This document shows positions 830 through 63,616 of a stretch of 64,000 nucleotides of DNA, one piece after another. Source of the DNA: a virus; the IMG/VR virus record IMGVR_UViG_3300028833_000003; one strand, written 5' to 3'. The translations under genes and the position numbers were made by a program. The notes below the pieces were generated by a model. That model searched no databases and was not told the origin of the DNA. It was given only the letters and a program-made list of their open reading frames with translations. Position 1 is the stretch's first letter. Every line of letters starts with the position of its first letter.

Positions 830-1837
830 ATGGTTTAGATTGTTATATCTGTTATTGCCGCAATTTTAATTCTGGCCGCGATTATAATTGATTCTAAATT
901 ATCTCAATAGCGCAAGGATTTAGTGCAGGAAATCACAGAATTAAAAACGCGCACAGAAGAATTAGTTAAAACTCGTGATGAATTGTAGGATGCAAATGAA
1001 AAATTAATGCACACCCGCAATGAAAATGAGCAATATATCGGATGGCAAGAATCAAAAATTGCATCTACAAAGACATCTATTGAAGTGATGCAATTAGCTG
1101 TAAAAAATGCTGAAAAAGGTGCTAATCTTCGTATCGAGGAATTAAAAAAACAAATAGAAAAAGAATATGATTATGCTAAATTTGAAGCCAAGGAAGATTA
1201 TCTTAAATTACAAGAAACACTAAGTCAAGATACTCAAAAGCAATTAGAAACAGATTTACAAAAATTACAAGAAGTAAATGATAATATAAATACGCAACAA
1301 GCTATTTTAGATGCTTTGCGCTCAAAGGCCATCGCGGCACGTAATATTAACATTGCAAGAGAAAAAGAAAAAGATGGAATTGCATTTTATCAGTTGCAAT
1401 TAACGCCAGAAGCAAAGCATGATAGTGAAGTAATGCGTTCTTTTGAATATCAATTAAGTCGTCCTGATGTAATTAATAAACTTATTTGGAAAGTGTTTTA
1501 TGAAAAACCATATACTAGTTTAGTCGGTCGAGTATTAGGCACTGCTACACATACTGGTGTTTATAAAATTACTGAATTAGAAAGCGGTAAAGTATATGTT
1601 GGTCAAGCAGTCGATGTTGCAGAAAGATGGCGTCAGCATATCAAGCGCGGCTTAGGCGCAGAACCAGTAACACAAAATAAGTTATATCCTGCTATGCACA
1701 AATTAGGTCCAGAGAATTTCACTTTTGAATTAATCGAAGATTGTCCAAGAGAAGAATTAAATGAGCGTGAGCGCTATTGGATTGATTTTTATGGCGGGAA
1801 AGAATTTGGATATAATGTTACCGGAGGCAACAAATGA
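830..1837 (+). CDS. Membrane-anchored coiled-coil protein with C-terminal GIY-YIG nuclease domain (3 in-frame TAG)
   Basis: ATG at 830 with in-frame TAGs at 836, 908 and 986, and no TAA/TGA before 1835.
- N-terminal hydrophobic helix IVISVIAAILILAAIII
- long K/E/Q heptad-rich region
- C-terminal GVYKITELESGKVYVGQA..RWRQH..YWIDFYG..GYN, which matches GIY-YIG
- no SD upstream. Confidence 0.65.
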
Positions 1838-2118
1838 AAAGAATTATTGATACACGCGGCACAGGAAAAACATATAGACTATTGGAACACGCGCAAGCAG
1901 TTGGCGGTATTGTTGTATGTAGTCATCCAGAAGGTATGAAAGTTAAAGCTGAATCATATGGTTTTGATAATATTACTTGTATGAGTTATGGCGAATATGC
2001 CAATGAAAATTTTTTACCTGGTAGCCGTACTCCAATTTTTATTGATGAATTGGAAGCATTTCTTACGTATAATATTAGTAATTATATAGAAGGCTATACT
2101 ATTAGTGTTGATTATTGA
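1834..2118 (+). CDS. Hypothetical protein (94 aa)
   Basis: ATGA start/stop overlap with the upstream gene. It has a weak P-loop-like TRGTGKT. The TGA stop lies inside the -35 of P3. Confidence 0.45.
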   Translation: MKRIIDTRGTGKTYRLLEHAQAVGGIVVCSHPEGMKVKAESYGFDNITCMSYGEYANENFLPGSRTPIFIDELEAFLTYNISNYIEGYTISVDY

Positions 2119-2143
2119 CTTTTTTAAAAAAATTTGGTATAAT
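2115..2143 (+). promoter_or_regulatory. Early promoter copy P3
   Basis: TTGACT at 2115-2120 and TATAAT at 2138-2143, 17-nt spacer, followed by ATATATAGAA. Confidence 0.7.
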
Positions 2144-2175
2144 ATATATAGAAAATGAAGAAAGGGTTTTAAAAA

Positions 2176-2529
2176 ATGTCTAAAAGCGAAGAGTTCTTGA
2201 ATTTCTGGAATTATTTGGTTCATGATGTAGCAGGTGATATTGATGTGCCTGAGAATGTGCAGGCATACATTGATGCACTAAGTGGTAATGAGAAAAAGGA
2301 GAAACCCTTATTTACCGATAATGGTAAAGTAATTTTGCAATGGTTGCAAGGTGCGCCGGACGCTTATTATAAATCAAAAGACATTGCTGAACAAGTTGGT
2401 TTGGCATCGAAGTCTGTGGCTGGCGCAATGAGAAAGTTGATTACAGATGGATTTGTTGAAAAAGTAGGCAAAGATCCAGTACTGTATATGATTACATCAA
2501 AAGGAAAAGAAATTAATATTGAGGAGTAA
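2176..2529 (+). CDS. MarR-like winged-helix protein
   Basis: KVILQWLQG...SKDIAEQVGLASKSVAGAMRKLITDGFVEKVGKDPVLYMITSKG fits a wHTH plus wing pattern. It is the first gene behind P3. Confidence 0.55.
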   Translation: MSKSEEFLNFWNYLVHDVAGDIDVPENVQAYIDALSGNEKKEKPLFTDNGKVILQWLQGAPDAYYKSKDIAEQVGLASKSVAGAMRKLITDGFVEKVGKDPVLYMITSKGKEINIEE

Positions 2530-3485
2530 TGATTATGAAAAAGACAATGAACAATGTGCATCTCGAAGGTTATGTGTATGATATTGACATGAAGGAAGCA
2601 GTTACTGGTGAAAGATCAAAAGTTCCTGGCACTAAGTATCTGCGCGGCACCATTCAGATTTGTACTGATGAAGTTGGCGCGAATGTATGCCCAGTTTATA
2701 TTTCTTATGCTACTCCTGTGACACCGGCTGGTCGTGCAAATGAGACTTATAACATCTTGTCTAAGCTCATGAGTGGGGAATACTCTACTTGGATGAATGG
2801 TGGCAAGGATAATGCCTGCCGTGTTCGTATTGATACTAGCATTGGCGTAAATGATTTTTATGCAACTGATGGAACTCTTGTTTCTCAGGTTCGTAATGAG
2901 AACGGTTTCCTCCATATTATGACCGAGGATTTCAATGAGGATACCAATCAGCGCGCTTCTTTCCAGGTTGATACGGTTATTACGAATGTAATTGAGAAGG
3001 AAGCAGACCCTGAGAGAGAGATGCCTGCACATGCTTTGATTAAGGGTTATACGTTTAATTACAATGGGTCTAAGATTATGCCTGTTGATTTTATGATTAC
3101 TAAGCCCGATGGTATTCGGTTCTTCCTTAGTATCGGTGCTTCTAATGCTAAGCCTTATTTCACGAAGTTGAGTGGTCATCAGACTTCTCGTACTGCTCAA
3201 ATTAAGGTTGAGGAAGAAAGCGCATTTGGTGACCCAATTGTTCGTTTCCGTTCTATTTCTCGGAAGGCATATGTCGTTGATAGTTGCTTGAAGCAGCCTT
3301 ATCTGTGGGATGATGCTGAAACGATTACTGCGGCTGAGTTTAAGAGTAAGTTGGCTGACCGTGATGTTGAGCTTGCTGCTTTAAAGCAGAGTTCAGATGA
3401 GTATCGTAAGAACCGTGCGGCTGGTGGTACTGCAACTGCTACAACCACGGCTGCCGCAAGCACTAATGCACTTTATGATTTTTAA
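2529..3485 (+). CDS. Putative ssDNA-binding (OB-fold-like) protein
   Basis: The N-terminus NNVHLEGYVYD is SSB-like. An Ala/Thr-rich linker precedes a C-terminal ..ALYDF tip that resembles SSB protein-interaction tails. Its position is upstream of the recombinase-like ATPase. The start could be 2529 or 2535. Confidence 0.4.
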   Translation: MIMKKTMNNVHLEGYVYDIDMKEAVTGERSKVPGTKYLRGTIQICTDEVGANVCPVYISYATPVTPAGRANETYNILSKLMSGEYSTWMNGGKDNACRVRIDTSIGVNDFYATDGTLVSQVRNENGFLHIMTEDFNEDTNQRASFQVDTVITNVIEKEADPEREMPAHALIKGYTFNYNGSKIMPVDFMITKPDGIRFFLSIGASNAKPYFTKLSGHQTSRTAQIKVEEESAFGDPIVRFRSISRKAYVVDSCLKQPYLWDDAETITAAEFKSKLADRDVELAALKQSSDEYRKNRAAGGTATATTTAAASTNALYDF

Positions 3486-3502
3486 TTAAGGAGGGCACAT
3501 AA

Positions 3503-4507
3503 ATGGCTAATGCATTGCTCTCTATTAAACCCCACGAAGTGTCTAAGGACCTTCGTGGGTATAGTGTCCTTTTGTACGGCACACCCAAAAGCGGTAAAAC
3601 TTCTACCGCAGTTCAGTTCCCTAAACATTTGCTTCTTGCTTTTGAAAAGGGTTATAGCGCAATTCCCGGCGCGATGGTTCAGCCAATTAACTCTTGGAAT
3701 GAGTTTAAAGCAACTTTGATTGACCTTCGAGACGAGGATGTTAAAAAGACTTATGAAACCATCATTATTGATACAGCGGATATTGCTTATGATTACTGCT
3801 GTGAATATGTTGCTAGCTCTTATGATAAAGCATCTATTAGCGAAATCCCTTACGGTAAGGGATACGAGCTTGTCATGACCGAATTTGATAAAGGTATCCG
3901 TAAAATCCTACAAATGGGTTACGGCCTTGTTCTTATCTCTCACGCTCAGGAACGCACTGATAAAGATGTTGATGGTTCAGATATTGTGCGGTTGATGCCT
4001 ACTCTTGATAAACGTGGGCGCTTGATTTGCGAACGTACTTGTGACATTGTTGGTCTTATTAAGCCTGCTCGTGGAGCAGACGGTATTGTTCGTAGCAGAA
4101 TGTATATGCGCGAAACACCAGAATATCAGGCCGGTTCTCGTTTCAAGTATATGGTCGATAGCATTGACCTTAGTTATGATAATCTTGTAAAAGCCATCTC
4201 AGATGCTATTGAAAAAGAAGAGCAGATGACTGGTGGAAAATATGTAACTGCAACACGTGAGCAAGTTTATACTGAGGCTCCTAAGCCCGATGATGAAGAT
4301 GATTTGCTCGCAGCCCAAGAAGAATTTAAAACTGTTGCTAGTCAGCTATTGACAAAAAATCAGGCTAATCGCACCAAGATTGCCGCAGTAATTCTCCAAT
4401 ATCTCGGCAGAGATGAGAGCGGAGCACCGCGGAAAGTCACTGAAACCGAGGTAAAGGATGTTCCTGCAATTAGACTGATTAATAAAGACCTCGGCAGTTT
4501 GCTATAA
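3503..4507 (+). CDS. RecA-superfamily ATPase, AAA_24 / Sak4-like
   Basis: Walker A YGTPKSGKTS, Walker B IIIDTAD and LVLISHAQ are present. SD is AAGGAGGG. Confidence 0.6.
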   Translation: MANALLSIKPHEVSKDLRGYSVLLYGTPKSGKTSTAVQFPKHLLLAFEKGYSAIPGAMVQPINSWNEFKATLIDLRDEDVKKTYETIIIDTADIAYDYCCEYVASSYDKASISEIPYGKGYELVMTEFDKGIRKILQMGYGLVLISHAQERTDKDVDGSDIVRLMPTLDKRGRLICERTCDIVGLIKPARGADGIVRSRMYMRETPEYQAGSRFKYMVDSIDLSYDNLVKAISDAIEKEEQMTGGKYVTATREQVYTEAPKPDDEDDLLAAQEEFKTVASQLLTKNQANRTKIAAVILQYLGRDESGAPRKVTETEVKDVPAIRLINKDLGSLL

Positions 4508-4520
4508 ACAATATTTCAAA

Positions 4521-4553
4521 TCAACCGAGACAAAAATCTCGGTTGATTTTTTT
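4521..4553 (+). terminator. Intrinsic terminator
   Basis: A 10-bp perfect stem TCAACCGAGA / TCTCGGTTGA with a 6-nt loop is followed by T7. Its descending arm supplies the -35 of P4. Confidence 0.7.
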
Positions 4554-4571
4554 CTAAAATTATGATATAAT
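4543..4571 (+). promoter_or_regulatory. Early promoter copy P4
   Basis: TTGATT at 4543-4548 and TGaTATAAT ending at 4571, 17-nt spacer. Confidence 0.65.
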
Positions 4572-4592
4572 ATATATAAGGAAGGTGAGATA

Positions 4593-5117
4593 GTGGCGCA
4601 TTATGTGCATTGTGTATTTTGTAATGAGCGTTTTGATCGTGATAAAGTGCCATGTGTAGCAATAAGTCAGCGACGCTATGCTCATACGGATTGTGCAACT
4701 GCCGCCGAAGCAGGAAAATCAAAAGAAGAGCATGATTATGATGAATTAGTTGCATATATTAAGAAATTATTTGATATAACACAATTATCACCAAAGATAA
4801 ATAAACAAATTCAAGTATATCATGATGAAAATAATTTTTCTTATAGCGGCATCCATAAATCATTGGTTTATTTTTATGAAGTAAAAGGTAATTCAATAGC
4901 AAAAGCAAATGGCGGTATTGGTATTGTCCCGTATGTATATGATGTGGCAAAACAATATTACACTGCAATTTGGATTGCTAATCAGCAAAATAAAGAAAAA
5001 GCACAAGCAATTTTACCAGAAATGGTACAGACGAAAACAGTAGTAATTACAATTCCTCGTCCAGTACCAAAAAAGAAAGCACCATTTAGTTTTTTGGACG
5101 AGGAGGCAGTTGAATAA
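4593..5117 (+). CDS. Zinc-finger protein, possible replication initiation/helicase-loading factor
   Basis: GTG start after AAGGAAGGTGAG. It has a CxxC...HxxC cluster (HCVFCNERF...YAHTDC). It lies directly upstream of the DnaB-like helicase and is translationally coupled to it. Confidence 0.4.
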   Translation: MAHYVHCVFCNERFDRDKVPCVAISQRRYAHTDCATAAEAGKSKEEHDYDELVAYIKKLFDITQLSPKINKQIQVYHDENNFSYSGIHKSLVYFYEVKGNSIAKANGGIGIVPYVYDVAKQYYTAIWIANQQNKEKAQAILPEMVQTKTVVITIPRPVPKKKAPFSFLDEEAVE

Positions 5118-6658
5118 TGGCATCTAAATATGTAGATACAACTGCAATTATCCAGGTAATTGGTAATATATTTAATAATCCAACATTGTTGGATAATACT
5201 GAACAGGAATACAGTTTATCAGAAGCAGACTTCCCAGAAGACTTCCACAAAGTGTTAATCGGTGCAATTTATAAACTATATACAAGTGGAGTTAATCCTA
5301 TACGATTAACTGATATAGTAGATTATTTGGAAAGTCGGCCCAAAAGTAAAGCAATTTTTGAAGTTAATCATGGTGAAGATTATTTGCATCATATCTCTAA
5401 AAATGCAAATGCTTTAACATTTAACTATTATTATGCAAGATTAAAAAAATTTTCTCTTTTAAGAGCGTATGATGATTTGGGTTTTAAATTAGAAGAATAT
5501 TATGACCCAGACACATTAGATAGTAAGAAAAAAGAAGAACAAGAAGAATGGCTTGATAATACTTCACTTGAAAGAATTGCTGATTGTTTTGAAGCAAAAA
5601 TTGAGTCCATTCGAGAACAATATACTACTGATACATCTTATAATCATTCATATAGCGCTGGCGATGGCATTGTTGAATTGATTAAGAAACTGGAAGAGCA
5701 TCCAGATGTTGGTGTTCCACTGTATGGGCAGTATATATCAACAATAACGAGAGGCGCGCGACTTGGAAAATTATACCTTAGATCCGCTCCAACGGGCGTT
5801 GGTAAAACTCGTAGTATGGTGGCGGATGCTTGTTATATCGGCTGTAATAAGATATATGATAAAGATTTTGGTATGTGGATCAACAACGGACAAGCGCTAC
5901 CAACAGTGTTTATCGCTACTGAACAGGATAAAGAAGAGATACAGACTTTGATGCTGGCTTTCTTATCCAGCGTTGATGAAAGACATATCTTAATGGGACA
6001 GTATGAAAATGATGAGCGTGAGAGAGTTATGGAAGCGGCAAAAATTATTCAAGAGTCACCAATGTGGATTGAAGAGCTACCGCAATTCAATTTGCAAGAC
6101 GTAGAGAATACTGTCAAACGCGCAATTAGAGAACATGATGTAAGATATATCTTTCATGATTACATTCATACCAGTTTAAAGATTTTGGAAGAAATTAGTA
6201 AGCGCGCTGGTAAAATAGCATTACGTGAAGATAATATTTTGTTTATGTTATCAGCCCGCTTAAAAGAAATTTGTGAAAAACATAATGTTTTTATGATGAC
6301 CGCAACACAGTTGAACGGCGATTGGAAAGACAGTAAAACACCTGACCAGAATTTGCTGCGTGGCGCAAAAGCAATAGCAGATAAGATTGACTATGGTAGT
6401 ATTTTATTGCCAGTCACAGATGATGATTTAACTAAAATTCAAAGCATTATTGGCGCGAACCCACGATGGACCGCGCCGAACCTGAAATTGTCTGTTTATA
6501 AAAATAGACGAGGAGAATATAAAAGTGTATTATTGTGGTGTAAAGCTGACTTAGGCACTTGTCATATCGACCCGATGTTTATGACAGATTATTCATTTAA
6601 TTTGATTCCTATTGAAGATTTAAAAATTATGTTTGAAGAAGAGGAGCGTGTATTTTAA
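5117..6658 (+). CDS. dnaB: DnaB-like replicative DNA helicase
   Basis: 513 aa with Walker A APTGVGKT and a RecA-like C-terminal domain (IFHDYIH, MMTATQLN). The N-terminal helical domain is DnaB-like. Confidence 0.7.
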   Translation: MASKYVDTTAIIQVIGNIFNNPTLLDNTEQEYSLSEADFPEDFHKVLIGAIYKLYTSGVNPIRLTDIVDYLESRPKSKAIFEVNHGEDYLHHISKNANALTFNYYYARLKKFSLLRAYDDLGFKLEEYYDPDTLDSKKKEEQEEWLDNTSLERIADCFEAKIESIREQYTTDTSYNHSYSAGDGIVELIKKLEEHPDVGVPLYGQYISTITRGARLGKLYLRSAPTGVGKTRSMVADACYIGCNKIYDKDFGMWINNGQALPTVFIATEQDKEEIQTLMLAFLSSVDERHILMGQYENDERERVMEAAKIIQESPMWIEELPQFNLQDVENTVKRAIREHDVRYIFHDYIHTSLKILEEISKRAGKIALREDNILFMLSARLKEICEKHNVFMMTATQLNGDWKDSKTPDQNLLRGAKAIADKIDYGSILLPVTDDDLTKIQSIIGANPRWTAPNLKLSVYKNRRGEYKSVLLWCKADLGTCHIDPMFMTDYSFNLIPIEDLKIMFEEEERVF

Positions 6659-6660
6659 AA

Positions 6661-6906
6661 ATGGCAACGATTGCGAAAGAATTGGTTTATAGCAAAGGAC
6701 ACAAGAAAGTAATTCGCGGACGTGAATTGCAATATGTGATGCCTCTTGAAGAATATCGTGCTATCGCTGGTCAGGGACCGAAGAATATGAATTCTCCTGA
6801 TTATGTGCTGGATTATCTTAATGAAGCTGGTGGCTTTCTTGGAACTGTCACTAAAATCGTAACAGAAGATACGCCCATCCATATTATTCATAACTTAGAG
6901 GAGTAA
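6661..6906 (+). CDS. Hypothetical protein (81 aa)
   Basis: Intact ORF packed tightly between the helicase and the primase. Confidence 0.4.
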   Translation: MATIAKELVYSKGHKKVIRGRELQYVMPLEEYRAIAGQGPKNMNSPDYVLDYLNEAGGFLGTVTKIVTEDTPIHIIHNLEE

Positions 6907-6908
6907 TT

Positions 6909-8012
6909 ATGTATTATTATGACAAGGACGAAATCAAAAATAAACTCACTACTGATATGATTTTTGAGTGTGTCCAGGATTGTGGCGGTTCTCCTAACCG
7001 CACCCCATTCGGCTTTATATCCGCCACAATCTGTCATAATAAATATGGAGAAGGTTCTCACAAATTGTATTATTATGAGAATACTCGTTTGTTTAGATGT
7101 TATACAGGTTGTGACGCGACATTTGATATTTTTGAATTAATTACTAAAATTCATAAGATTAATCATCCGGAAGATACTGAATGGTCTTTGTATAGCTCAG
7201 TTTGTTGGGTAGCGCAAAAGTTTCATTTTGCTCCTACAAATACAGTAACAAAAGAAGCAGGTAAAGAATTACCAGAGTGGGGATTATTTGAACGGCGCGC
7301 ACAATTTAAATTAACAGAAGAACAACCTCGTATTCAGTTACCAGAATTTCCAAAAACTATTTTATATAATTTGCCACGCCCGATTGTTCCTGACTGGATA
7401 AATGAAGGCATGACGCAAGAAGCAATCAATCATCATATGATTGGTTATTATGCACCAACAGAGCAATTAACTATTCCGCACTTTGATATAGATGATAGAT
7501 TTATAGGATTGCGCGGGCGAGCACTCGGTGAAGATGGTGCGCAATATGGTAAATATCGCCCAATGATGATTAGTGGTAGAATGTATAATCATCCATTGGG
7601 TTTAAATTTATATAATATTAATAATGCTAAAACCGCAATACAAAAGATACGTAAAGCAATTATCTTTGAAGGCGAGAAAAGCGCCATTTTATATGAATCA
7701 TATTTTGGACAAGAAAATGATATTTCTGTTGCGTGTTGCGGTTCTAACATTAGTAGTTATCAAATTAAATTATTATTAGACCTCGGAGTGGAAGAAATTA
7801 TTATCGCGTTTGATAGACAGTTTCAAACGCGAGGGGATGAAGAATTTAAACATCTAACTCGAAATCTAACTTCCATAAACAAAAAATATAGGCCGTATGT
7901 ATTAATCTCTTTTATCTTTGATAAAACGGATTTACTGCCCTATAAAGCATCCCCAATAGATTTAGGTAAAGACGTTTTTTTGAAGATGTTTAAGGAGAGA
8001 ATTATTCTATGA
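6909..8012 (+). CDS. dnaG: DnaG-like DNA primase (zinc finger + TOPRIM)
   Basis: Zn-binding pattern CHNK..(x)..CYTGC is present. TOPRIM-like motifs are IIFEGEKSAI and IIAFDRQ. Confidence 0.65.
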   Translation: MYYYDKDEIKNKLTTDMIFECVQDCGGSPNRTPFGFISATICHNKYGEGSHKLYYYENTRLFRCYTGCDATFDIFELITKIHKINHPEDTEWSLYSSVCWVAQKFHFAPTNTVTKEAGKELPEWGLFERRAQFKLTEEQPRIQLPEFPKTILYNLPRPIVPDWINEGMTQEAINHHMIGYYAPTEQLTIPHFDIDDRFIGLRGRALGEDGAQYGKYRPMMISGRMYNHPLGLNLYNINNAKTAIQKIRKAIIFEGEKSAILYESYFGQENDISVACCGSNISSYQIKLLLDLGVEEIIIAFDRQFQTRGDEEFKHLTRNLTSINKKYRPYVLISFIFDKTDLLPYKASPIDLGKDVFLKMFKERIIL

Positions 8013-9760
8013 AATATAAGTTGATTAATGAACAAACATATAGTGATTGGATAGAACAGGTTTTACACAATCGTGGTTTAACTGATAGAGAGATACATCT
8101 TTATTTAAATCCATATGAGTCATTGGAGCACGATTGGCGTGAATTATCACATATAGGAGATGCGGCGTATCAAGTAGCAATGGCAATCGCGCAGCAAAAG
8201 AAGGTATATGTACAAGTCGATTGCGACTGCGATGGCTATACCTCTGCCGCGGCACTATTAAATTATTTATGGTCATTATTTCCAGCTACTATTGAAAATA
8301 ACTGGACGTGGGGACTTCATGCTAATAAAGAACATGGCATTGAAGTAGAAGCAGTAAAAACATTAATCCCCTCTGGCTTACATATGGTAATTGCGCCTGA
8401 TAGTTCAAGTAATGAGCATGACATACATAAAGAACTATTAAATGATTGGAATATTAAAACAATAGTATTAGACCACCATGAAGCAACACCTGATGCAGAA
8501 GACCCCGCGTATATTGTAAATAATCAAATGTGCAATTATCCAAATAAAACATTAAGTGGCGTTGGCATTGTTTATAAATTCTGTGAAGCATTTGATGAGA
8601 TGTTTGGTTTTAATAATCATACGCAGATTTTAGACTTAGTTGCTCTTGGTATGATTGGTGATATGATGGATATGCGTTCATTAGAAACTCGATATTTAAT
8701 TACTGAAGGTCTAGCATATCCGCAAAATCCATATTTTACTGGAATGTTAATGAAACAGCAATACCAGCTGCAAGATAATTTTACGCCATTTAATATAGCA
8801 TTTTATGTTGTGCCATATATTAATGCAATTACAAGAGTAGGAACACAAGAAGAAAAAGAATTAATCTTTCAAGCATTATTAGATTTTAAAGCGCATAATT
8901 TAATTGTTTCTACAAAACGTGGTGACGCACCTGGGACTATGACTGAACTAGTAACACAAGCTGTGCGGGTGTGCGGCAATGTGAAGGCACGACAGGAACG
9001 AGAAAAGAAAGCAGTAATTGACCAATTAGATGATATGATTGTAAATAATCGTCTTACAGATTATCCAGTGATTATTTGTGAGATGAAAGAACCAATAGAT
9101 GCAAATCTCACTGGCTTAGTTGCTAACTATGTAATGGCTAAATACGGTAAGCCAACACTTATTCTTAATTGGCGCGATGACCATTGGGCTGGTAGCGGTC
9201 GCGCATTTCCAATAGCCGAAGTAGAGAATTGGCGTAATTTTTTTGAGAACGATTGCTCAGTTATATATGCGCAAGGACATGCTAATGCTTTTGGTATCGC
9301 AATGACTGCGGAGCAATTACAAGAATTAAAACAGCAAATGAACACTTGGTCTTTTGTAATTACTCCTATTCATGACGTTGATTTTGTATTTAATGCTAAA
9401 TCTGAATTGTTGGTACATTGTATTAAACGTCTTACTGAACGCGGCGATTTGTGGGGACAAGGAGTAAGCGAACCAGAAATTTGTGTTGAGCATGTAAAAA
9501 TAGATGCGAAACAAATTCATTTATTTTCTCCTGATAAAAAACCTACCATTCGTTTCGATTTGCCGCACAATATCGCAGGAATGATTTTTAATACAACGCA
9601 AACAGTATATGATAAATTAGTCAGTATGATACCTGAGATGGGTGCGATTGAATTAAGGATTATTGGTAAGGCATCATTAAATAATTATAATGGGAATATT
9701 ACACAACAAATCATAATCTCTGACTATGAAGTAACAAATGTGATAGACCTTGACTTTTAA
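8009..9760 (+). CDS. RecJ-like DHH-family ssDNA exonuclease
   Basis: DHH motifs DCDCDGYTSAA, APDSSSNE, VLDHHE and GMIGDMMD are present, plus a DHHA1-like region with GHANAFG. Confidence 0.75.
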   Translation: MKYKLINEQTYSDWIEQVLHNRGLTDREIHLYLNPYESLEHDWRELSHIGDAAYQVAMAIAQQKKVYVQVDCDCDGYTSAAALLNYLWSLFPATIENNWTWGLHANKEHGIEVEAVKTLIPSGLHMVIAPDSSSNEHDIHKELLNDWNIKTIVLDHHEATPDAEDPAYIVNNQMCNYPNKTLSGVGIVYKFCEAFDEMFGFNNHTQILDLVALGMIGDMMDMRSLETRYLITEGLAYPQNPYFTGMLMKQQYQLQDNFTPFNIAFYVVPYINAITRVGTQEEKELIFQALLDFKAHNLIVSTKRGDAPGTMTELVTQAVRVCGNVKARQEREKKAVIDQLDDMIVNNRLTDYPVIICEMKEPIDANLTGLVANYVMAKYGKPTLILNWRDDHWAGSGRAFPIAEVENWRNFFENDCSVIYAQGHANAFGIAMTAEQLQELKQQMNTWSFVITPIHDVDFVFNAKSELLVHCIKRLTERGDLWGQGVSEPEICVEHVKIDAKQIHLFSPDKKPTIRFDLPHNIAGMIFNTTQTVYDKLVSMIPEMGAIELRIIGKASLNNYNGNITQQIIISDYEVTNVIDLDF

Positions 9761-9778
9761 ATAAAAATATGATATAAT
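9750..9778 (+). promoter_or_regulatory. Early promoter copy P5
   Basis: TTGACT at 9750-9755, inside the last codons of the upstream gene, and TATAAT at 9773-9778, 17-nt spacer. Confidence 0.7.
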
Positions 9779-9802
9779 AAATATAGAAAATAGTAGGAGA
9801 TT

Positions 9803-10999: not shown

Positions 11000-11024
11000 T
11001 TTTTTTAAAAAAGTATGATATAAT
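10996..11024 (+). promoter_or_regulatory. Early promoter copy P6
   Basis: TTGATT at 10996-11001 contains the upstream TGA stop. TATAAT is at 11019-11024, 17-nt spacer. Confidence 0.7.
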
Positions 11025-11057
11025 ATATATAGAATAAGGAAGAAAGAGGATTGTTGT

Positions 11058-42012: not shown

Positions 42013-42038
42013 TAATTAGATAATTTATTAAAAATAGT

Positions 42039-42079: not shown

Positions 42080-42084
42080 ATATA

Positions 42085-54966: not shown

Positions 54967-54983
54967 GTACCATTCATCTCCTT

Positions 54984-56237: not shown

Positions 56238-56308
56238 AACATTTTTCACTCCCTTTCTATATGGCTTGGTCTTTCTATTATATTCAAAATCACATAAGAC
56301 AGATTAGT

Positions 56309-58057
56309 TTATCTCGCCCACATTGCTCCACGTACTTTATTATTTTCATCCATAGCCACAAACGTATTCCCAACAACAACAGGATAAGCAGTTGCCAATA
56401 CTCCATTCTCACCAAGAACCCAATAAGAACTTACTTCTTCTTGCCAGTCTTCTAGCGCTGCCAATCTGTTTAAAATTGTGTCTTCATCTGCGTGTTTTTC
56501 TCCACGACCTAATAAAGCAATAACAGATGTTAAATCAATGCCTGATAAACTATTATAAATACCCCAAATAGTTGGTTCAGCATTTTCATTCATAGTATCT
56601 TGCGGCGTGCCAATTTGTGCCTATACATCAGCGATATCCTATGATAAAACATTCAACATACCATAAATTGTAGCGGTATCTACATTTTCACTATCATTTT
56701 CACCAAGTAATCCTTCAATAATTTCTAAATCTTCATTGGCTTTAATTAATGTAGCATCTAAATGATCTAATTGATCAGAAACTTCCATACCTTTTGCTAA
56801 TAAGCCACGAACAGTTGTTAAATCATATACTGGTGTCCATCCCTCAGGAGGTATTTGGTCTTTAGGAATGTATTGATCTGCATTATCTAAATCTTTATAA
56901 TGCCATTCTCCGCGACCATTTTCTTCACGTTCGTGTCCCTCATAGCCAATTAATTCTAACATAGTATTCGCAATACCACGTAAAGTATAAGTATCTTTAC
57001 CACCTGGGTCATTATGCGCAACCTCATAAGTTGAATTAATAGTAGTATCTCTTGGCGTTCTTCTTGTAACAAATTGACCTGAAGTTGTCTCGGTTGCAAC
57101 ACCCACTCCACTTCCATATACTACGTCCCATACCTAAGCAATAGTATTACCTATCTCAGCAAAATTAATATGTATGTCATATACATCTGGTAATGCCCCT
57201 GTTGCCGATGGGGAAGCAGAGCCTGAAGCAGCATTTATGTCGCGTGCATTATAAGGATATGATTTATAATGAGTAGGTTGATAAGTAAGCCCAACATTTA
57301 AAAAAGAATTTTCTATTAAATTCTTATCACAATGCTCAAAAGGAGAAAATCCTTCCGTATTATATTCTTTAATACTACCAATACGATACAATGGAGTTTG
57401 TGACATATGTAATTCATATGTCAAACCACTTTTAAGTAAATAAGGCGCACGAAGACGCTCATTATTCATATTAACATTAACATAGCCACCAGTGAATGGA
57501 GCATCAATAATACATTCTACTTGTGGTAAATATTCATTCAAACTAGCGATTTCTCTATAATAATATCCCTAATCTTTAGAATATAATTTAATAAATACTG
57601 AGTTATGCGCAGGTTCTAAACTATGTGTAATATCTTGAAATATATTATCAAAATATGTATATAAAGGATCAGCTTCATCAATTTCGGCTAAATTAAATTC
57701 TGCTCCCTCTTCCATACTACACATATGATAGCCACTATTTGTATAATAATAATATCTTGTTCTCCAAGAACCAGCCAATAAATTTTCATATACAACACCT
57801 GGTTTTGGATCAATTACATTATCAAATTGCGGACTTACTTGTGTATTCTGTGTATATGTATGATAAAATGTTTTATTGTTATTATTATAATAACCTAAAA
57901 CAGTTTCTGCTGCACCATAAGTCACTAAGGCATAACGACCTACTAATACTCCATCATCTTGATGCTGCATCAATTCCCACCGTGATGTATAAACCTTATC
58001 AAATACAAAAGTAGGTTGCTAAGGAGTTGTTAAATTACCATAAAAATTTTCAGGCAT
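56309..58057 (-). CDS. Virion structural protein (582 aa, 5 in-frame TAG)
   Basis: ATG at 58057 after GGGGGAGGG. TAGs are at 58019, 57569, 57134, 56639 and 56621. Four track fragments lie in one frame. Confidence 0.55.
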
Positions 58058-58058
58058 A

Positions 58059-58424: not shown

Positions 58425-60809
58425 TCACAAAATATCATCAGTTACTCGTGTAGCCTAAATCGACATTAAACCATCATGAGTAAAACTATAATTAAATGAT
58501 TTAATTAAATATTCACCATAAATTTTAGTTTTTTCATCTTTCACAATTATTTTTGTATTAGGCTCTAAATAATATACTGGTACACACTATAAATTGATTG
58601 TTTCTTGATAAAAAGTATGTTGATATAATAATCCTTCTAATGTATCAACACAACTCTTCCCTCTTGTGCTAGTACGTAGTAAATTTTTAGCCCAATCTGG
58701 AATACGCAAAATGACATAATTAATAGTATCGTCAGTAGTGGTATAATTCTATATTAAATCTTCTGTATCAGTATCTTTAATATCTTCAAAAATAACATTT
58801 GGTACAGAATGATATGAAATTGCACGTACCTTATCATCGGTCAGCATTTGCTAACGATGACCAATAACAGAACATTTAAATTTCTACATATCAGGATTGT
58901 CTTCCATAAAATCAAACCAAAATAATAAATTCTATGGATTAACTAATTTAACATATTCTTTACCATTAACTTGACCATACGTAAAAGCATTCGGATTCCA
59001 TTTACCATTATTTATCCAGTTATTATATTCTGCCTAAGCATTTTCATATGCACTATAAGCGTTTTGATATTTTTTATCACTAGGATTTGGTGGCAATATA
59101 TCTACATTATGTACTAAAGGCCAAAAAGCCAATACATCAGCATAATAGTCTTTATAACCAGTAGTATCTGTTGCTTCCCATCTTTCAACTTCTTTTCTAC
59201 CAATAGACCATAATGCAGAACCAGCATTATTATTTGCCAATTTAGTAATTGTTGATTCTTTAACATGACTATCTTTCTATTGACGATCATAAGCCATAAA
59301 ATAAATTAAATCACGCCAATCATAAGGCGTCTATACAACCTATTCTGTAATAGGTATCGCGCAAGGATCATGTGGGTCCGCAGCAATACGATCAAAATAT
59401 TCCTAAGTACAATACCATTTTAAGTCTTCAATAATACCTGCTGTCGTGGGTTTTACTAAACGAAAATATTTTAATGGCTTATCATCAATAGCATAACGCA
59501 TATGAATTTTTCTTGTGCTATAAGAAGTAGTCTATTCTCCCCAAATAGAAAAATCATTTTTAATATTATCTAACTTAGGTGTATTCTAAAAACTACTAAT
59601 TAAATTTGCAGAAGTAAATTGATAAGAATACTTACTTACATCCGCTGCGCTAGCATAATAACGCTCTTTCCGCGCTTCACCTGTATTAGTAACTACTTCA
59701 TTAGTAAAAGCAATATTACTATATACTAATTTGCGGCGAAACCGAAAACGACCATATACATCATAAAAATATTCAAACTCACCGAGCATTTTTACAATCA
59801 TATCTAGTGCTTTTGTTACTGGGTCACCAACAGATAAAGTTAAATCACCAGCATATGTTAAATCTGTCGGACGATAACCAATGGTTTCACCATATTCAGC
59901 ACCAACTTCAAAATGATAACCAATATGATTATGAATAAAATTACCAGTTAAACTTTCATGATATTTCATCCAAACTAATTTTTCTTCTAGCTTTTGACAT
60001 TGCGTAAATGGAATTGTTTTTGCATACGCATATTTTTCATCATCAATCAACATCATTTGTGTTGTTTCACTTGATAAATCAAACATATTGTTGCCGTCTA
60101 ATAACTCACCATACTCAACCGTTGAAGTAGTATTTAAAGTATAAATATTAAATACATAAACATTCACATTTTTTGAGTTATTATCTAATAATTCAACAGC
60201 TACATCATCTACGTCTTCAATGATTATGTTACTATAAGGCTCACCTGCATAATCATGTGCAATACCTTTAACGATAGTACGTATATCTTCTTTTTCTTCT
60301 CCTTTATACATACCACCTTCATAGATATAAGTAGTGCCAAAATCATGTGCAGCAAAAACTTTCCCGCCAACAGTTCCATCTAATAAACACATTTTATCTT
60401 TGCCAGTAATATTAATCGTATATGTTTTATCATTTAATGTATGAGCAAAATTGGTAATTACAAATGTGCCTTGCGGGAACCAAATAATATCAGGATATTT
60501 ATCGTTAATAAAATTCTATAGTCCTATATAACATTTAAATTTTGTTTGTAATGTCCAATCAATTTCAGTGAAATTAATTTTATCATATTCACAAGTTAAT
60601 TGAATTTGACAAGTGCGTCGCATTGCACTTTCACCTGTGACGTTAATAGAACCGCTAACTACCTATCCTTCTAAAATACCTTTCGCTCGTTCATCAAAAG
60701 TTAATGCAATTAATCGACAATAAATAACTCGTACTGGATATTCGTCTAACTATTTCAAAAACGTTTTATCCAATAGATACATAGAAGGATCATTTAATGC
60801 TGCTGTCAT
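58425..60809 (-). CDS. Large tail/baseplate-like structural protein (794 aa, 16 in-frame TAG)
   Basis: ATG at 60809 after TAGGAGG, in an ATGA overlap with the upstream gene, and TGA stop at 58425. Reminiscent of tail-tip/baseplate proteins are ..SGSINVTGESAMRRTCQIQL.. and ..VTKALDMIVKMLGEFEYFYDVYGRFRFRRK... The family is not identified. Confidence 0.6.
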
Positions 60810-63616
60810 AATGAGGTTCCTCCTATATTTTTACGTGTCGGTTTTTTCCCGCTATCTGCATAAGTTACACCAGTTGTATAAGCATGATTATTTAATATCA
60901 AAGTTTCATCTGCTAAAGAATTGTCTTTATACGCATCAATATTATAAATATCAATATCTGATAAAGCAGATGTTATATTGCCCCAAATTGCTTTCAAGGC
61001 TTTAGAATAATCATATAAAGCACGATTATATGTAATAATTAATTCATTGTAGTGCGTAACCCACTGATACTGTAAAGCATGCAAACTTTCATCGGTATTC
61101 TCCCAACTTTGTGGAGAATGAATAAAAGTTTGTAATTCTCGTTTTGCGCGAATATAATTATCATAGTAATGTTGAGTATCATCTCTATGAGTTTGGTAAA
61201 TTGCTTCTTGTGTTTGACAAGAAATTTCTACCAAAACACCATTACCAGCAGTAATTTTCGTTGGAATTGATTTAAACTATGTAAATAACTAAGTCCCTCT
61301 TAAAGAATCTAAATTTAAATTAATTACACTGCCATCTTCAAACTAAAGCTAAGCGGTATAATCAATATGGGAACCTGCGCCATATCCATAATAATAATAC
61401 GTATTTTCATTTTCTTTATCTGGACCTTTTGTCACAAAAATGTGTGGATCCATTGTGGTTCCTACACTATCTAATACAAAATAAGGTATTAATATATCGC
61501 CTCGATAATATACTCCATCATGATACTATAATGTAGTATTATCTTTAATATATTCAGTTGCCTAAACTGACTAACCTGTAAAACGTGAAAATTTTAATTT
61601 ATATAAACGTGAAATTGGCAACATGCAATCCAATAAATTGACTTGTGGCCCTAAGCCCCAACGTTGAATACAAAGTTCTTCTACTGGGTTACAATAATTT
61701 ACGGTATTAAAATCAGATTTTGTAATTGCGCCTACCGTTACTACTCCATTATATAAAGTATCGTAAATGGAAGCTGGCTCCTAAACACGTCCAATAGTAA
61801 TCTCTTTAATTAAAGACCCTGTTGGTAATGTTAAAGCATAATACCCAGTTGCGCCAATAGTAATATGTCGATAATCAGTAGTTATACCATCTACCCCAAC
61901 GATACGTAAATTAAACATAGTGCCAGGAACACAATTTTCAATTTTTAAAGAGCCAACACCCTCATATACATTTAAACTTGGTGTTTCTACATTTTGATTT
62001 TTAAATACGTCAGTTAATGAAATAGTATAATATGTAAATGTTTGATGTACCGCGGCACTAGTAGAAGTACCATCATAAGGTGCTTTATATAACCCAAATT
62101 TAATTAAATCATTTAAATCATCAGCATTACCGCATTCACTAGCTTGTGACTAAAACGTATGTAGCATACGTGAAACACTATCATTAGGTGTTAATGAACT
62201 ATTCATTAGATATACAATATAATTGCCTTCACCTGGGCTTTTTAATAATTTTGGTTTGCCATTACTTAACCACTATAAAGCTGTCATATTAAAGCGTCGT
62301 TCAAGTGTAAGATTTTCATCTGTAATATCTGTTTCATCTTCATGATTACCATAGCCTAGTTCTTCTCTTGAATAAAAATAGCCATCTCTATCCATGAGAT
62401 AACTTAATAAACCAGATAGCTAAAATTCTTTATAATCTACAACGCCATTTCTAAAATATTTTGGATATTTAGAACCTATTGTATTTTTTTTCGATTCATT
62501 CAAAGTGCGTTTAAATGCAGTAACTTTAGGATTAAAACGTATATCTAATTGACGTTCTCCATCCCATAAAAATAAATCTTCAAAATATGCAGTTACATCA
62601 TTTGAAATAGTACGACGTGAGTAAAGACCACGACTATTATACTGTCGCACTGAATAACGATATGTTACACCATGTTCTACCATAAAATCAGTATAAAAAT
62701 ACTAACCAGTAACCATATCTTCTGTTAAAGAAAAATTAAATAATTTGGTCCAACTACCAAAATTATCTTTTGAACTAGAACGTGAAAATTCATATCGTCC
62801 AGCATTTGTGTCAAAAATAGCATTATATTTAATTTTGATAAGACCATTGTCATAATCTAAAACTGCTTTTAAAGGTGCGCGAGTATCACTTGGCAATCCT
62901 GTCCCGGCAATAATAGTATACCAAGGAGAAGATATTTCCTAGAATGAATTAGTCTATACTACATAACGTAAAAGATAGTATTCATCAACAATTAAAATTT
63001 TACCAAGAGACCAATGATCTTCACTACGCCCAGCTTCTGTATCGCCATATTCAGCATGAGGCTACCATCCACTAGATTCTATTAATTCATATGATGATGA
63101 ATATAAATCAAATTTATATTGATAAACAACTTCCGTGGTATCACTATTTAAATATTCACCAGTAAATTCTTGGAAGTCATAATTATTACCAAAAGAATCT
63201 AAACCAACTATATTGACAGTAATATCATTTGTACATTTAACAATAGCAACAGTCGAATAATATCCACAAGCGTTATCTTTATCTATAAAAGCAATTTGTA
63301 TTTTATATGATTGGCCTATTGATAATCTCTGTCGCCAAGGTAATAAAGAAAATACTGCAACTAATGAATCTTCCGCGGTACTTGTACTAGTAATTGGATA
63401 TATGTTTGGCGCTTCAGTATTAACATTTAAATCTACTTCACATAAAATGGTATCAGTATTTGTTGTACGTAATCTCATACGCAAACCTGTTACTTGTGAT
63501 GCCGCAACCGCACGATTCATTGAAAAAGGGACCCTTAATAAGGGTCCCTTTGAATAAATCATTGAAGGTAAAGTACCAGCTATAACAGGCGGATAAAGCT
63601 TTGTTGTAGCCGGCAT
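60806..63616 (-). CDS. Large tail structural protein (936 aa, 15 in-frame TAG)
   Basis: ATG at 63616 after GAGGAGG. One frame runs through fragments 63062.., 62702.., 62420.. and 60806.. with the gaps checked. TGA stop. Confidence 0.6.

What the first reader, a model, noticed from the sequence alone, without database searches (positions are those of the whole stretch)
830..63616. TAG is a sense codon genome-wide: about 135 in-frame TAGs and no TAG terminator
Every break between same-frame fragments in the ORF track is a TAG (cta on the + strand for leftward genes). I walked each gap codon by codon and found no in-frame TAA/TGA until the gene ends listed in the features.

Reading TAG through rebuilds complete, recognisable proteins:
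- NrdD, with ATP-cone, core and the Zn-ribbon/glycyl-radical RVTGYL tail
- dUTPase, which regains its AGYDF motif
- RuvC, from 5 pieces
- the SpoIID/NlpC-P60/SH3 lysin, from 7 pieces

About 45 fragments also collapse into three ORFs of 2-2.7 thousand codons each. All ~52 CDS end in TAA or TGA.

TAGs often occur in tight pairs:
- TAG GAA TAG at 20733-20741
- Q-L-Q at 40985-40993 and at 61343-61351
- Q-x-x-Q at 24830-24841, 59331-59342 and 61562-61573

Gln is the precedent for TAG recoding in gut phages, but the decoded residue cannot be fixed from this window. The aligned SpoIID position is variable (K/R/Q-type).
Basis: partly seen in the sequence, partly recalled or inferred. Interest (0 to 1): 0.7.

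Follow-up and report, generated by a model that had tools for sequence, protein, structure and literature searches.

The report
Phage that reads TAG as glutamine
This 64-kb stretch belongs to a roughly 169-kb bacteriophage that reads the stop codon TAG as glutamine in its structural and lysis genes, keeps TAG out of its DNA-replication genes, and carries its own amber-suppressor tRNA: a known kind of phage code switch, though the tRNA has an unusual extra arm.

Summary
With only TAA and TGA as stops, the window resolves into 42-45 genes covering 96% of the DNA, with 130-139 in-frame TAGs and no TAG terminator. Under the standard code, coverage is 74% and the late region breaks into 55 fragments.

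TAG is not used evenly. The replication block has 2 TAGs in 4,908 codons, against 121 in 13,550 codons of tail, baseplate, giant-ORF and lysis genes.

The decoded residue can be fixed as glutamine. Among strain variants 89-98% identical to the window, 26 of 32 codon exchanges at TAG sites are with CAG or CAA.

The source contig is 168,974 bp. It carries a tRNA with a CUA anticodon 23 kb outside the window.

This is genetic code 15 recoding, as already described for gut phages. The phage is a distant relative of phAss-1 and of SPbeta-like phages, so it is a new member of a known kind.

One thing may be new. The suppressor tRNA has an extra arm whose 7-nt loop copies the tRNA-Gln anticodon loop. 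Long opal-suppressor tRNAs in other phage contigs carry a tRNA-Trp anticodon loop at the same place. This suggests a built-in identity mimic for the aminoacyl-tRNA synthetase.

The parts
830..63616 (.). Span containing all 130-139 in-frame TAG codons. No gene ends in TAG.
1834..15579 (+). TAG-free replication block. It holds YorF-like, AAA_24, DnaB helicase, Toprim primase, DHH/RecJ-like, RecD-like helicase, DnaE-type polymerase (11058-14936) and guanylate kinase genes. No TAG appears either in frame or as a stop, so the block is readable under both codes. It continues about 19 kb further left on the source contig.
830..1837 (+). GIY-YIG endonuclease gene. Its 3 TAGs all lie in the first 53 codons, and whether that N-terminal extension is real is uncertain.
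15648..17885 (+). NrdD anaerobic ribonucleotide reductase with 2 in-frame TAGs (codons 55 and 664). Homology runs through both TAGs to the glycyl-radical tail.
19408..20010 (+). dUTPase with 1 TAG at codon 16, upstream of the AGYDF motif.
20003..20491 (+). RuvC-like resolvase with 4 TAGs. The start at 20003 is inferred from the KILAYDQAS motif.
21765..23183 (-). Lysin (SpoIID + NlpC/P60 + SH3) with 6 TAGs.
23183..24343 (-). Late protein of 386 aa with 7 TAGs and no family match.
24719..25702 (-). Radical-SAM / 4Fe-4S protein with 7 TAGs.
25796..31657 (-). Giant ORF of 1953 aa with 14 TAGs.
31769..34114 (-). Laminin_G_3 (concanavalin-like) tail-fibre-type protein of 781 aa with 12 TAGs.
34127..41287 (-). 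Giant ORF of 2386 aa with 18 TAGs. The open frame continues to 41968.
45119..53164 (-). Giant ORF of 2681 aa with 7 TAGs.
53239..58057 (-). Three tail-type proteins of 575, 417 (Phage_tail_C hit) and 582 aa, with 4, 3 and 5 TAGs.
58425..60809 (-). Baseplate-type protein of 794 aa (DUF5048 family) with 16 TAGs. More than 3000 homologues were found, many of them full length.
60806..63616 (-). Late protein of 936 aa with 15 TAGs.

Best explanation
The window is part of a tailed phage of about 169 kb. The phage is distantly related to SPbeta-like phages, Enterococcus EF1-like phages and phAss-1, and it uses genetic code 15, in which UAG is read as glutamine.

What is shown:
- TAG occurs about once per 110 codons inside late genes (tail, baseplate, giant ORFs, lysin, radical SAM) and in some middle genes (NrdD, dUTPase, RuvC).
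- TAG never ends a gene.
- TAG is exchanged with CAG or CAA between strains, as a synonymous codon would be.
- The same genome carries a tRNA with a CUA anticodon, 23 kb to the left of the window.
- About 33 kb of replication genes contain essentially no TAG, so they can be translated under the host's standard code.

What is inferred:
- The host reads UAG as stop.
- After infection, the replication genes are translated at once.
- Late genes give full-length products only once the phage suppressor tRNA, charged with Gln, outcompetes release factor 1. The code change would then work as a timing gate on virion and lysis proteins.
- Every phage stop is TAA or TGA, and RF2 reads both. Termination of phage genes would therefore survive a complete loss of RF1 activity.
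For: Coding density and gene integrity:
- Coverage is 96% under table 15 against 74% under table 11, and all of the gain is in the late region.
- There are 130-139 in-frame TAGs, no internal TAA or TGA, and all stops are TAA or TGA.
- Domains and homology continue across TAGs in NrdD, the lysin, the dUTPase and RuvC, and the 794-aa protein. In that protein, invariant columns lie on both sides of the TAGs and after the last one.

Glutamine:
- Strain variants 89-98% identical to the window show 32 exchanges at TAG sites: 15 with CAG, 11 with CAA and 6 with other codons.
- That is 81% Gln. The synonymous share for comparable codons is 89% for AAG, 83% for GAG and 68% for TAT.
- In deeper homologues, Gln is the best-scoring residue for the 16 TAG columns. 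Controls recover the right residue in at least 93% of trials.
- CAG is depleted in late genes: 3.8 per 1000 codons against 15.1 in early genes, while TAG is 8.9 per 1000.

Suppressor tRNA:
- It lies at L022 1921-2013 of the same 168,974-bp contig. ARAGORN gives the anticodon as CTA, and Rfam scores it as a tRNA at 55.8 bits.
- It is 91% identical over 70 nt to an annotated tRNA-Sup-CTA of phAss-1.

Uneven use of TAG:
- The replication block has 2 TAGs in 4,908 codons against 121 in 13,550 late codons, P about 1e-16.
- The stretch of source contig to the left of the window (L021) is also almost TAG-free. Beyond the window's right end, late genes carry 40, 27 and 36 TAGs.

Not an assembly artefact: independent assemblies from ENA, Logan and JGI give the identical sequence.

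Precedent: PMC10607447 describes TAG->Gln recoding, tRNA-Sup-CTA genes and recoded late genes in phAss-1. PMC10879173 and PMC11210395 treat code 15 in gut phages as established.
Against: - There is no protein-level evidence.
- About 63 kb of the genome (record 1-62,803) could not be read. Whether the phage has RF2, GlnRS or further suppressor tRNAs is therefore unknown. None appears in the Pfam lists for the 106 kb examined.
- The host is unknown, and a scan of GTDB genomes found no relative. That the host uses the standard code is inferred only from the avoidance of TAG in replication genes.
- Six of the 32 exchanges are not with Gln codons.
- The deep-homologue inference depends on Q residues in database proteins. 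Some of these may themselves be code-15 translations of TAG. With Q ignored, the signal is uninformative.
- Genes next to the tRNA cluster contain TAGs (14 in 2,483 codons). Early expression of the tRNA is therefore not established.
- The suppressor's body is not clearly Gln-like. Relatives resemble tRNA-Trp or tRNA-Gln.
Confidence: 0.93

Rival explanations
1. TAG is reassigned, but to an amino acid other than glutamine. One candidate is Trp, because relatives of the suppressor have tRNA-Trp-like bodies. Ser, Leu or Tyr are candidates because the tRNA has a long extra arm like class II tRNAs. Pyrrolysine is a candidate because ARAGORN labels any CUA anticodon as Pyl.
For: - The tRNA(CUA) is 93 nt long with a 20-nt insertion in the variable region.
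- Bodies of related suppressors score closest to tRNA-Trp.
- PMC10879173 reports Trp, Ile and Tyr isotype predictions for a minority of phage tRNA-Sup genes.
Against: - Exchanges at TAG sites are 26 with Gln codons, against 2 with TCA, 1 with TAT and none with TGG in the refined gene set.
- The 11 TAG<->CAA exchanges each need two substitutions. That many would not be expected unless the two codons were synonymous.
- The discriminator base is G73, not the A73 recalled for bacterial tRNA-Leu and tRNA-Tyr (own knowledge).
- No pyl genes appear in the Pfam lists for the 106 kb examined.
- The extra arm carries a Gln anticodon loop rather than a Ser- or Leu-type arm.
Confidence: 0.04
2. TAG is a genuine stop. 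On this reading the late genes are fragmented pseudogenes of a decaying element, or they are expressed only by rare leaky readthrough.
For: Under table 11 every fragment is formally an ORF. JGI gene calls on the same DNA list such fragments (loci L017 and L020).
Against: - About 130 nonsense codons of one type only, with no TAA or TGA in 20,000 codons, cannot arise by decay.
- TAG positions are conserved across strains. For example, 43 and 34 are shared with L008 and L009.
- Elsewhere in these genes, exchanges between strains are mostly synonymous: 1609 synonymous against 669 non-synonymous. The genes are therefore under purifying selection as whole reading frames.
- Homology and invariant residues continue past the TAGs.
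- A cognate suppressor tRNA is encoded on the same contig.
Confidence: 0.01
3. The host itself reads UAG as Gln. There is then no code switch, and the phage simply mirrors the code of its host.
For: The host is unidentified, so its code could not be checked.
Against: - A 33-kb block of replication genes avoids TAG altogether, while TAG is as frequent out of frame there as it is elsewhere (15-17 per 1000). This selective avoidance makes sense only if TAG is unreadable when those genes are translated.
- The phage carries its own tRNA(CUA).
- No bacterium with UAG->Gln is known to me (own knowledge). The cited papers state that hosts of such phages use the standard code.
Confidence: 0.03

Closest known systems
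Stop-codon-recoded gut phages using code 15 (TAG->Gln). The primary papers are Ivanova 2014, Borges 2022 and Peters 2022, recalled from my own knowledge. The phenomenon is also stated in PMC10879173, PMC11210395 and PMC10607447.
   Same: - In-frame TAG is concentrated in structural and lysis genes.
- Early and replication genes are compatible with the standard code.
- The phage encodes a tRNA(CUA).
- Gln is the decoded residue.
- Stops are TAA and TGA only.
   Different: This genome is not close to any deposited recoded phage. Megablast finds nothing apart from a 700-nt stretch of NrdD. No RF2 or GlnRS was seen in the 106 kb examined.
phAss-1 / proposed Phassvirus (OQ749652, 'Caudoviricetes code 15 clade'; Babkin et al. 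2023, PMC10607447)
   Same: - TAG->Gln recoding affects late genes and also NrdD and dUTPase-type genes.
- The polymerase is a DnaE-type (YorL-like) enzyme.
- A long-arm tRNA-Sup-CTA in phAss-1 is 91% identical to the one here over 70 nt.
- The predicted host is a Firmicute.
   Different: - The polymerase is only 37% identical at the amino-acid level, which is as far as SPbeta.
- The 794-aa protein is 31% identical over 41% of its length.
- The genome is 169 kb against 136 kb.
- This is not the same genus or a near relative.
SPbeta-like Bacillus phages and Enterococcus EF1/VRE9-type phages, which use the standard code
   Same: The replication module is shared: YorF, YorH, a YorL-type DnaE polymerase, AAA_24 and DnaB.
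   Different: According to PMC10607447, those phages show no stop-codon recoding. Amino-acid identity is about 37%.
E. coli amber suppressors supE (tRNA-Gln CUA) and su7 (tRNA-Trp CUA, charged with Gln). Recalled from my own knowledge and not tested here.
   Same: - A CUA anticodon on a Gln- or Trp-type body leads to insertion of Gln.
- The 1:72 pair is weak or mismatched, and the discriminator base is G73.
   Different: - The phage tRNA has an added 20-nt arm that carries a second, Gln-type anticodon loop.
- It serves wholesale decoding of more than 100 codons rather than weak suppression.

Membership tests
Code-15 (TAG->Gln) recoded phage | In-frame TAG inside conserved genes, with homology continuing on both sides. 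| tested here: met
   - NrdD aligns to 8p23 across both TAGs.
- The three lysin domains span 6 TAGs.
- The 794-aa protein has invariant columns before and after its 16 TAGs.
Code-15 (TAG->Gln) recoded phage | TAG is never used as a terminator, and genes end in TAA or TGA. | tested here: met
   All 42-45 window genes and all called genes on the flanking loci end in TAA or TGA. The last TAG lies at least 9 codons before the stop.
Code-15 (TAG->Gln) recoded phage | Coding density rises under table 15 but not under other reassignments. | tested here: met
   Coverage is 74.2% under table 11, 96.4% under table 15 and 75.2% under table 4.
Code-15 (TAG->Gln) recoded phage | The residue at TAG positions is glutamine. 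| tested here: met
   26 of 32 strain-level exchanges are with CAG or CAA. Gln scores highest in deep homologue columns, with the caveat that some database Q residues may derive from TAG.
Code-15 (TAG->Gln) recoded phage | A suppressor tRNA with a CUA anticodon is encoded by the phage. | tested here: met
   It lies at L022 1921-2013 on the same contig, 23.2 kb left of window base 1. Rfam scores it as a tRNA at 55.8 bits. No tRNA is found inside the window.
Code-15 (TAG->Gln) recoded phage | TAG is enriched in late (structural and lysis) genes and avoided in early genes. | tested here: met
   TAG occurs 0.4 times per 1000 codons in the replication block against 8.9 per 1000 in the late block. 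The flanks agree.
Code-15 (TAG->Gln) recoded phage | Phage-encoded RF2 or GlnRS. This is an accessory feature seen in some members. | tested here: inconclusive
   Neither appears in the Pfam lists of the 106 kb read. About 63 kb of the genome could not be fetched.
Code-15 (TAG->Gln) recoded phage | Peptides showing Gln at TAG positions. | not testable with these tools
   This needs proteomics.
Phassvirus (phAss-1 genus) | Genome-wide nucleotide similarity at genus level and shared synteny. | tested here: not met
   There is no megablast match to OQ749652. The polymerase is 37% identical at the amino-acid level, and the 794-aa protein is 31% identical over 41% of its length.
Pyrrolysine decoding of UAG | A tRNA-Pyl with its atypical structure, together with pylS and pylBCD. 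UAG would be rare and confined to a few genes. | tested here: not met
   - There are more than 230 TAGs in the 106 kb.
- The exchange pattern points to Gln.
- The tRNA fits the general tRNA model with a normal D arm.
- No pyl domains appear in the Pfam lists.
Class II tRNA (Ser, Leu, Tyr type) as the origin of the long arm | A long variable arm with a 3-5-nt loop and, for Leu and Tyr, the discriminator A73 (own knowledge). | tested here: not met
   The extra arm has a conserved 7-nt loop, Y-U-[C/U]UG-A-R, and the discriminator is G73. Only 4 of 30 long variable regions in the sample lack this loop, and two of those have Ser/Leu-like D arms.

The most novel reading that the evidence does not exclude
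The phage's amber-suppressor tRNA, and a family of about 90-nt tRNA(CUA) genes in many large phage contigs including phAss-1, carry a second arm that looks like an anticodon arm. It sits between the anticodon arm and the T arm.

For the amber suppressors:
- The stem of the extra arm covaries.
- Its 7-nt loop is Y-U-CUG-A-R (or UUG), which is the anticodon loop of tRNA-Gln.

For long opal suppressors, tRNA(UCA), in other phage contigs:
- About half carry a 4-7-bp stem at the same place.
- The loop there is N-U-CCA-A-A, which is the anticodon loop of tRNA-Trp.
- tRNA-Sec-like genes in the same sample lack this loop.

Proposed reading: the extra arm is a built-in mimic of the cognate sense anticodon arm. 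It would restore recognition by the aminoacylation enzyme (GlnRS, or GluRS/GatCAB, or TrpRS). These enzymes normally read the anticodon, and a stop-reading anticodon would otherwise lose that contact. The two arms may alternate in the anticodon-arm position.

The sequence pattern is observed. Its function is conjecture. I found no description of it in five literature searches, but it may exist in papers I could not search.
Probability: 0.4. Interest if true: 0.85.

Novelty: new member of a known kind. Interest (0 to 1): 0.42.

Why it matters
For annotation: standard-code gene calling turns two thirds of this phage into fragments. JGI calls on the same DNA show exactly that, so the tail, baseplate, lysin and four ORFs of more than 1,900 codons are invisible unless table 15 is used.

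For biology: the phage adds a large (169 kb), Firmicute-type lineage with an SPbeta-like replication module to the recoded phages. It shows a very clean split. About 33 kb of replication genes contain no TAG at all, which fits the idea that the code change times late-gene expression.

The possibly new element is the suppressor tRNA's extra arm, which copies the Gln anticodon loop, together with its Trp counterpart in opal suppressors. If it is an identity mimic, it would explain how phages get stop-reading tRNAs charged correctly by host enzymes that depend on the anticodon. It would also offer a natural design principle for engineered suppressor tRNAs.

Tried and rejected
- Near-identity DNA search of the phage collection: only a 75%-identical NrdD stretch in Thomasclavelia phages.
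- The window's right-end 51-mer in IMG/VR: no hit.
- Exact look-up of a standard-code fragment (63062-63616): not on record.
- Reaching the remaining 63 kb through the tape-measure protein: the homologue search with its C-terminal 1199 aa did not return the protein itself. That part of the genome stays unread.
- P0122 (the JGI copy of GyrB): not on record.
- GTDB scan with the polymerase, for a host or prophage: no relative.
- PDB alignments of NrdD to read the residue at TAG: both positions are variable (R and S/A), so they are uninformative.
- Clustering of TAGs into pairs: rejected as chance.
- Reading the extra tRNA arm as a plain class II variable arm, or as carrying a Shine-Dalgarno-like GGAGG: dropped once relatives showed that the loop, not that motif, is conserved.
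- A maximal-stem hairpin search gave inconsistent registers. It was replaced by the 7-nt-loop register, which the covariation supports.
Full report
**1. Observation**

The window has 35.4% G+C.

Treating only TAA and TGA as stops, a greedy non-overlapping ORF set gives 45 ORFs that cover 96.0% of the window and hold 139 in-frame TAGs. The window is 100% identical to parts of a 168,974-bp ENA contig (ERZ27257202 k141_292341), as shown by loci L010, L014 and L001. The collection holds code-15 gene calls for that contig.

I mapped those calls onto the window and added my own ORFs for 4566-14936. This gives:
- 42 genes covering 95.6% of the window;
- 130 in-frame TAGs, or 131 with a full-length RuvC;
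- no internal TAA or TGA;
- TAA or TGA at every gene end.

With the same greedy procedure, table 11 covers 74.2% of the window. It breaks the late region (21765-63616) into 55 ORFs with a median of 135 aa that cover 65.6%. Table 15 covers 96.4% overall and 98.9% of the late region, with 17 genes. Making TGA a sense codon instead gives no gain, at 75.2%.

No gene has its last TAG closer than 9 codons to its stop. In that closest case, homologues keep invariant residues beyond the TAG.

The six 'tight pairs' are at the stated coordinates. Pairs within 3 codons are no more common than random placement predicts: 6 against 4.2, P = 0.25.

**2. What the genes are**

The + strand block from about 1.8 to 18.4 kb is a replication and nucleotide-metabolism module. 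It contains:
- a YorF-like protein, AAA_24 and a DnaB helicase;
- a Toprim primase, a DHH/RecJ-like protein and a RecD-like helicase;
- a 1292-aa DnaE-type polymerase and a guanylate kinase;
- NrdD and NrdG.

The polymerase's best phage matches are all at about 37% amino-acid identity. They are Enterococcus VRE9/EF1-type phages, phAss-1 and SPbeta-like Bacillus phages.

The - strand block from 21.8 to 63.6 kb holds:
- the SpoIID + NlpC/P60 + SH3 lysin;
- a radical-SAM protein and a Laminin_G_3 protein;
- tail and baseplate-type proteins;
- three ORFs of 1953, 2386 and 2681 aa.

Reading through TAG restores known architectures:
- NrdD aligns with solved NrdD 8p23 over residues 5-741, across both TAGs and to the RVTGYL tail.
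- The lysin's three domains are spread over six TAGs.
- The dUTPase TAG lies upstream of AGYDF, and RuvC needs four TAGs read.

**3. TAG is not used evenly**

- The replication block has 2 in-frame TAGs in 4,908 codons, both in NrdD.
- The late block has 121 in 13,550 codons, or 8.9 per 1000 (Poisson P about 1e-16).
- Out-of-frame TAG is equally common in both blocks, at 15-22 per 1000, so the depletion is specific to the reading frame.
- Table 11 and table 15 give the same genes in the replication block.

The pattern continues on the source contig:
- To the left of the window, 27 further called genes have 1 TAG in total. The last of the 28 rows in that call is the window's own GIY-YIG gene, with 3.
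- The genes around the tRNA cluster again have TAGs, 14 in 2,483 codons.
- To the right of the window, the tape-measure C-terminus, a 1089-aa protein and a 2216-aa protein have 40, 27 and 36 TAGs.

About 33 kb of replication genes is therefore neutral between the two codes, and it is flanked by genes that need TAG read as sense. The + strand genes from NrdD to 21.0 kb, including the dUTPase and RuvC, already use TAG at the late density of 9.1 per 1000.

**4. Which amino acid**

The strongest evidence comes from strain variants fetched from other assemblies (L008, L009, L013, L015, L016 and L018, 89-98% identical to the window). In the refined gene set, 32 codon exchanges involve an in-frame TAG:
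- 15 with CAG;
- 11 with CAA;
- 2 with TCA;
- 1 each with AAA, GCT, TAT and GAT.

That is 81% Gln codons. The synonymous share for ordinary codons in the same comparison is 89% for AAG, 83% for GAG, 68% for TAT and 92% for TTG. The TAG<->CAA exchanges each need two substitutions. Treated as a Gln codon, TAG brings CAG's synonymous share to 44 of 50.

Two weaker lines agree:
- In 38 homologues of the 794-aa protein (36-60% identical), Gln is the top-scoring residue for the 16 TAG columns. The same test recovers the true residue in at least 93% of control samples. However, some Q residues in database proteins may themselves be code-15 translations of TAG.
- CAG falls from 15.1 per 1000 codons in early genes to 3.8 in late genes, more than other NNG codons fall, while TAG rises to 8.9.

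PDB alignments of NrdD were uninformative because both positions are variable.

**5. The suppressor tRNA**

There is no tRNA in the window. I walked the source contig using exact protein look-ups. This reached a cluster of nine tRNA genes at L022 6-3836, on the same strand as the replication genes. One of them, at L022 1921-2013, has a CUA anticodon and lies 23.2 kb to the left of window base 1.

Rfam's tRNA model scores it at 55.8 bits. The model aligns the CUA arm as the anticodon arm and treats 20 nt as an insertion in the variable region. ARAGORN's 'Pyl' label reflects only the anticodon.

The tRNA has an A1.C72 mismatch and G73. It is 91% identical over 70 nt to an annotated 88-nt tRNA-Sup-CTA of phAss-1, which sits next to a 72-nt tRNA-Sup-CTA. 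According to Babkin et al., tRNAscan-SE assigns the phAss-1 suppressor to Gln.

In the Pfam lists of the 106 kb read, I saw no RF2, GlnRS or pyl genes. About 63 kb could not be fetched.

**6. Mechanism, comparison and novelty**

This is the code-15 recoding already described for gut phages:
- TAG stands for Gln.
- The phage carries a suppressor tRNA.
- Recoded codons are concentrated in late genes.
- The hosts use the standard code, and the proposed role is timing of late and lytic functions (PMC10607447; PMC10879173; PMC11210395; Ivanova 2014, Borges 2022 and Peters 2022 from my own knowledge).

NCBI taxonomy already has a 'Caudoviricetes code 15 clade'.

This phage is not a Phassvirus. There is no nucleotide match, and the proteins are 31-37% identical. 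It is therefore a new, fairly distant member of a known kind.

Inferred rather than shown:
- The host reads UAG as stop.
- Late proteins appear only once charged suppressor tRNA accumulates.
- RF2 alone could terminate every phage gene, because all stops are TAA or TGA.

**7. A side result that may be new**

An exact 30-mer of the tRNA occurs in six IMG/VR contigs of 23-193 kb.

A scan for the CUA anticodon stem-loop, with a free gap before the T loop, returned 134 tRNA(CUA) genes. Of these, 95 are of normal length and 39 are 85-95 nt.

In 26 of 30 distinct long variable regions, the extra sequence forms a hairpin. Its 7-nt loop is Y-U-[C/U]UG-A-R, which is the anticodon loop of tRNA-Gln with CUG or UUG in the anticodon position.

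On a 26-sequence alignment, the three closing pairs covary:
- 50:60 is CG in 14, GC in 8 and UA in 2, with none unpaired.
- 51:59 is CG in 25 and AU in 1.
- 49:61 shows five pair types.
- The U and G of the triplet are invariant.

The 1:72 pair is mismatched in 11 of the 26 sequences and is U-A in 10. The bodies are mixed: some are closest to tRNA-Trp and some to tRNA-Gln. The Gln loop is therefore not simply a relic of the tRNA's own anticodon arm.

As an independent test, I scanned for long tRNAs with a UCA anticodon. Among 37 unique genes, about 20 have a 4-7-bp stem with the loop N-U-CCA-A-A at the same position. This is the tRNA-Trp anticodon loop, for example CACAG[GUCCAAA]CUGUG. Many of these genes have AGGGGC acceptor ends. 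Most of the GGAAG- and GGGAG-type genes, which look like tRNA-Sec, lack the loop: 15 of 19.

Long forms are rare among ordinary class I tRNAs in the same loci, at about 5%, against 29% of the tRNA(CUA) genes.

In short, amber suppressors carry a Gln anticodon loop in the extra arm and opal suppressors carry a Trp anticodon loop. I propose, as conjecture, that the extra arm mimics the cognate anticodon arm. Synthetases that read the anticodon would then still recognise a tRNA whose real anticodon reads a stop.

Five literature searches found no description of this. The papers on phage suppressor tRNAs that I opened do not mention it. I cannot exclude prior description elsewhere.

**8. Verdict**

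The finding is real and correctly interpreted, and the decoded residue is now fixed as Gln. It is a new member of a known phenomenon, so its interest as given is moderate to low. The suppressor tRNA's second anticodon-like arm is the part worth following up.

Noticed in passing
L022 1921-2013 (same contig, 23.2 kb left of window base 1); relatives in L025-L030, L031 5988-6075 and many IMG/VR loci: The amber-suppressor tRNA has a 20-nt extra arm. The stem of the arm covaries, and its 7-nt loop copies the tRNA-Gln anticodon loop (CUG or UUG). Long tRNA(UCA) genes in other phage contigs carry a tRNA-Trp anticodon loop (CCA) at the same place.
   Followed up: yes
L022 2032-2138 and L022 8193-9725: A weak Y RNA-like (YrlA) match lies 19 nt downstream of the tRNA(CUA). 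It scores 32 bits against a gathering score of 69 and has T-arm-like and D-arm-like modules. A 510-aa DUF2828 + DUF7788 protein lies 6 kb further on. This could be a phage Ro/Y-RNA-type pair, or it could be chance.
   Followed up: partly
L022 2086-2224: A tRNA-like sequence has good acceptor, D and T arms but about 66 nt inserted in the anticodon region. Rfam scores it as a tRNA at 18.9 bits, below threshold. It may be an intron-containing or degenerate tRNA.
   Followed up: no
window 830-1837: The GIY-YIG endonuclease gene sits inside the otherwise TAG-free block. Its three TAGs all lie in the first 53 codons, which encode a predicted membrane helix and a coiled coil. A standard-code caller starts the gene at 1007. 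It may be a mobile homing endonuclease whose N-terminal extension is optional.
   Followed up: partly
window 41288-42084: A 797-nt stretch has no called gene. The open frame of the 2386-aa ORF continues to 41968 with two more TAGs, and strain variants are called at 2455-2458 aa. The true start may therefore lie further upstream, or use a non-ATG codon.
   Followed up: no
window 24719-25702: A radical-SAM / 4Fe-4S protein with 7 TAGs sits among tail and lysis genes, which is an unusual place for such an enzyme. Its function is unknown.
   Followed up: no
window 25796-53164; L024 1-16651: There is an exceptional run of very large late ORFs: 1953, 2386 and 2681 aa in the window. Just outside it lie ORFs of 2216 and 1089 aa and a 4508-aa tape-measure protein. 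None of the three in the window was searched against Pfam here.
   Followed up: no
window late genes versus early genes: Late genes use far fewer G-ending codons in general. AAG is 9.2 against 20.0 per 1000 codons, GAG 7.5 against 19.6 and TTG 10.7 against 24.7. The two modules therefore differ in codon usage beyond TAG.
   Followed up: partly
an IMG/VR locus among L032-L269 (96-nt tRNA-Ile(UAU)): One long tRNA with a UAU anticodon has an extra arm whose loop contains GAU, the standard Ile anticodon. This hints that the 'second anticodon loop' pattern may extend beyond stop-codon suppressors. It is a single case.
   Followed up: no
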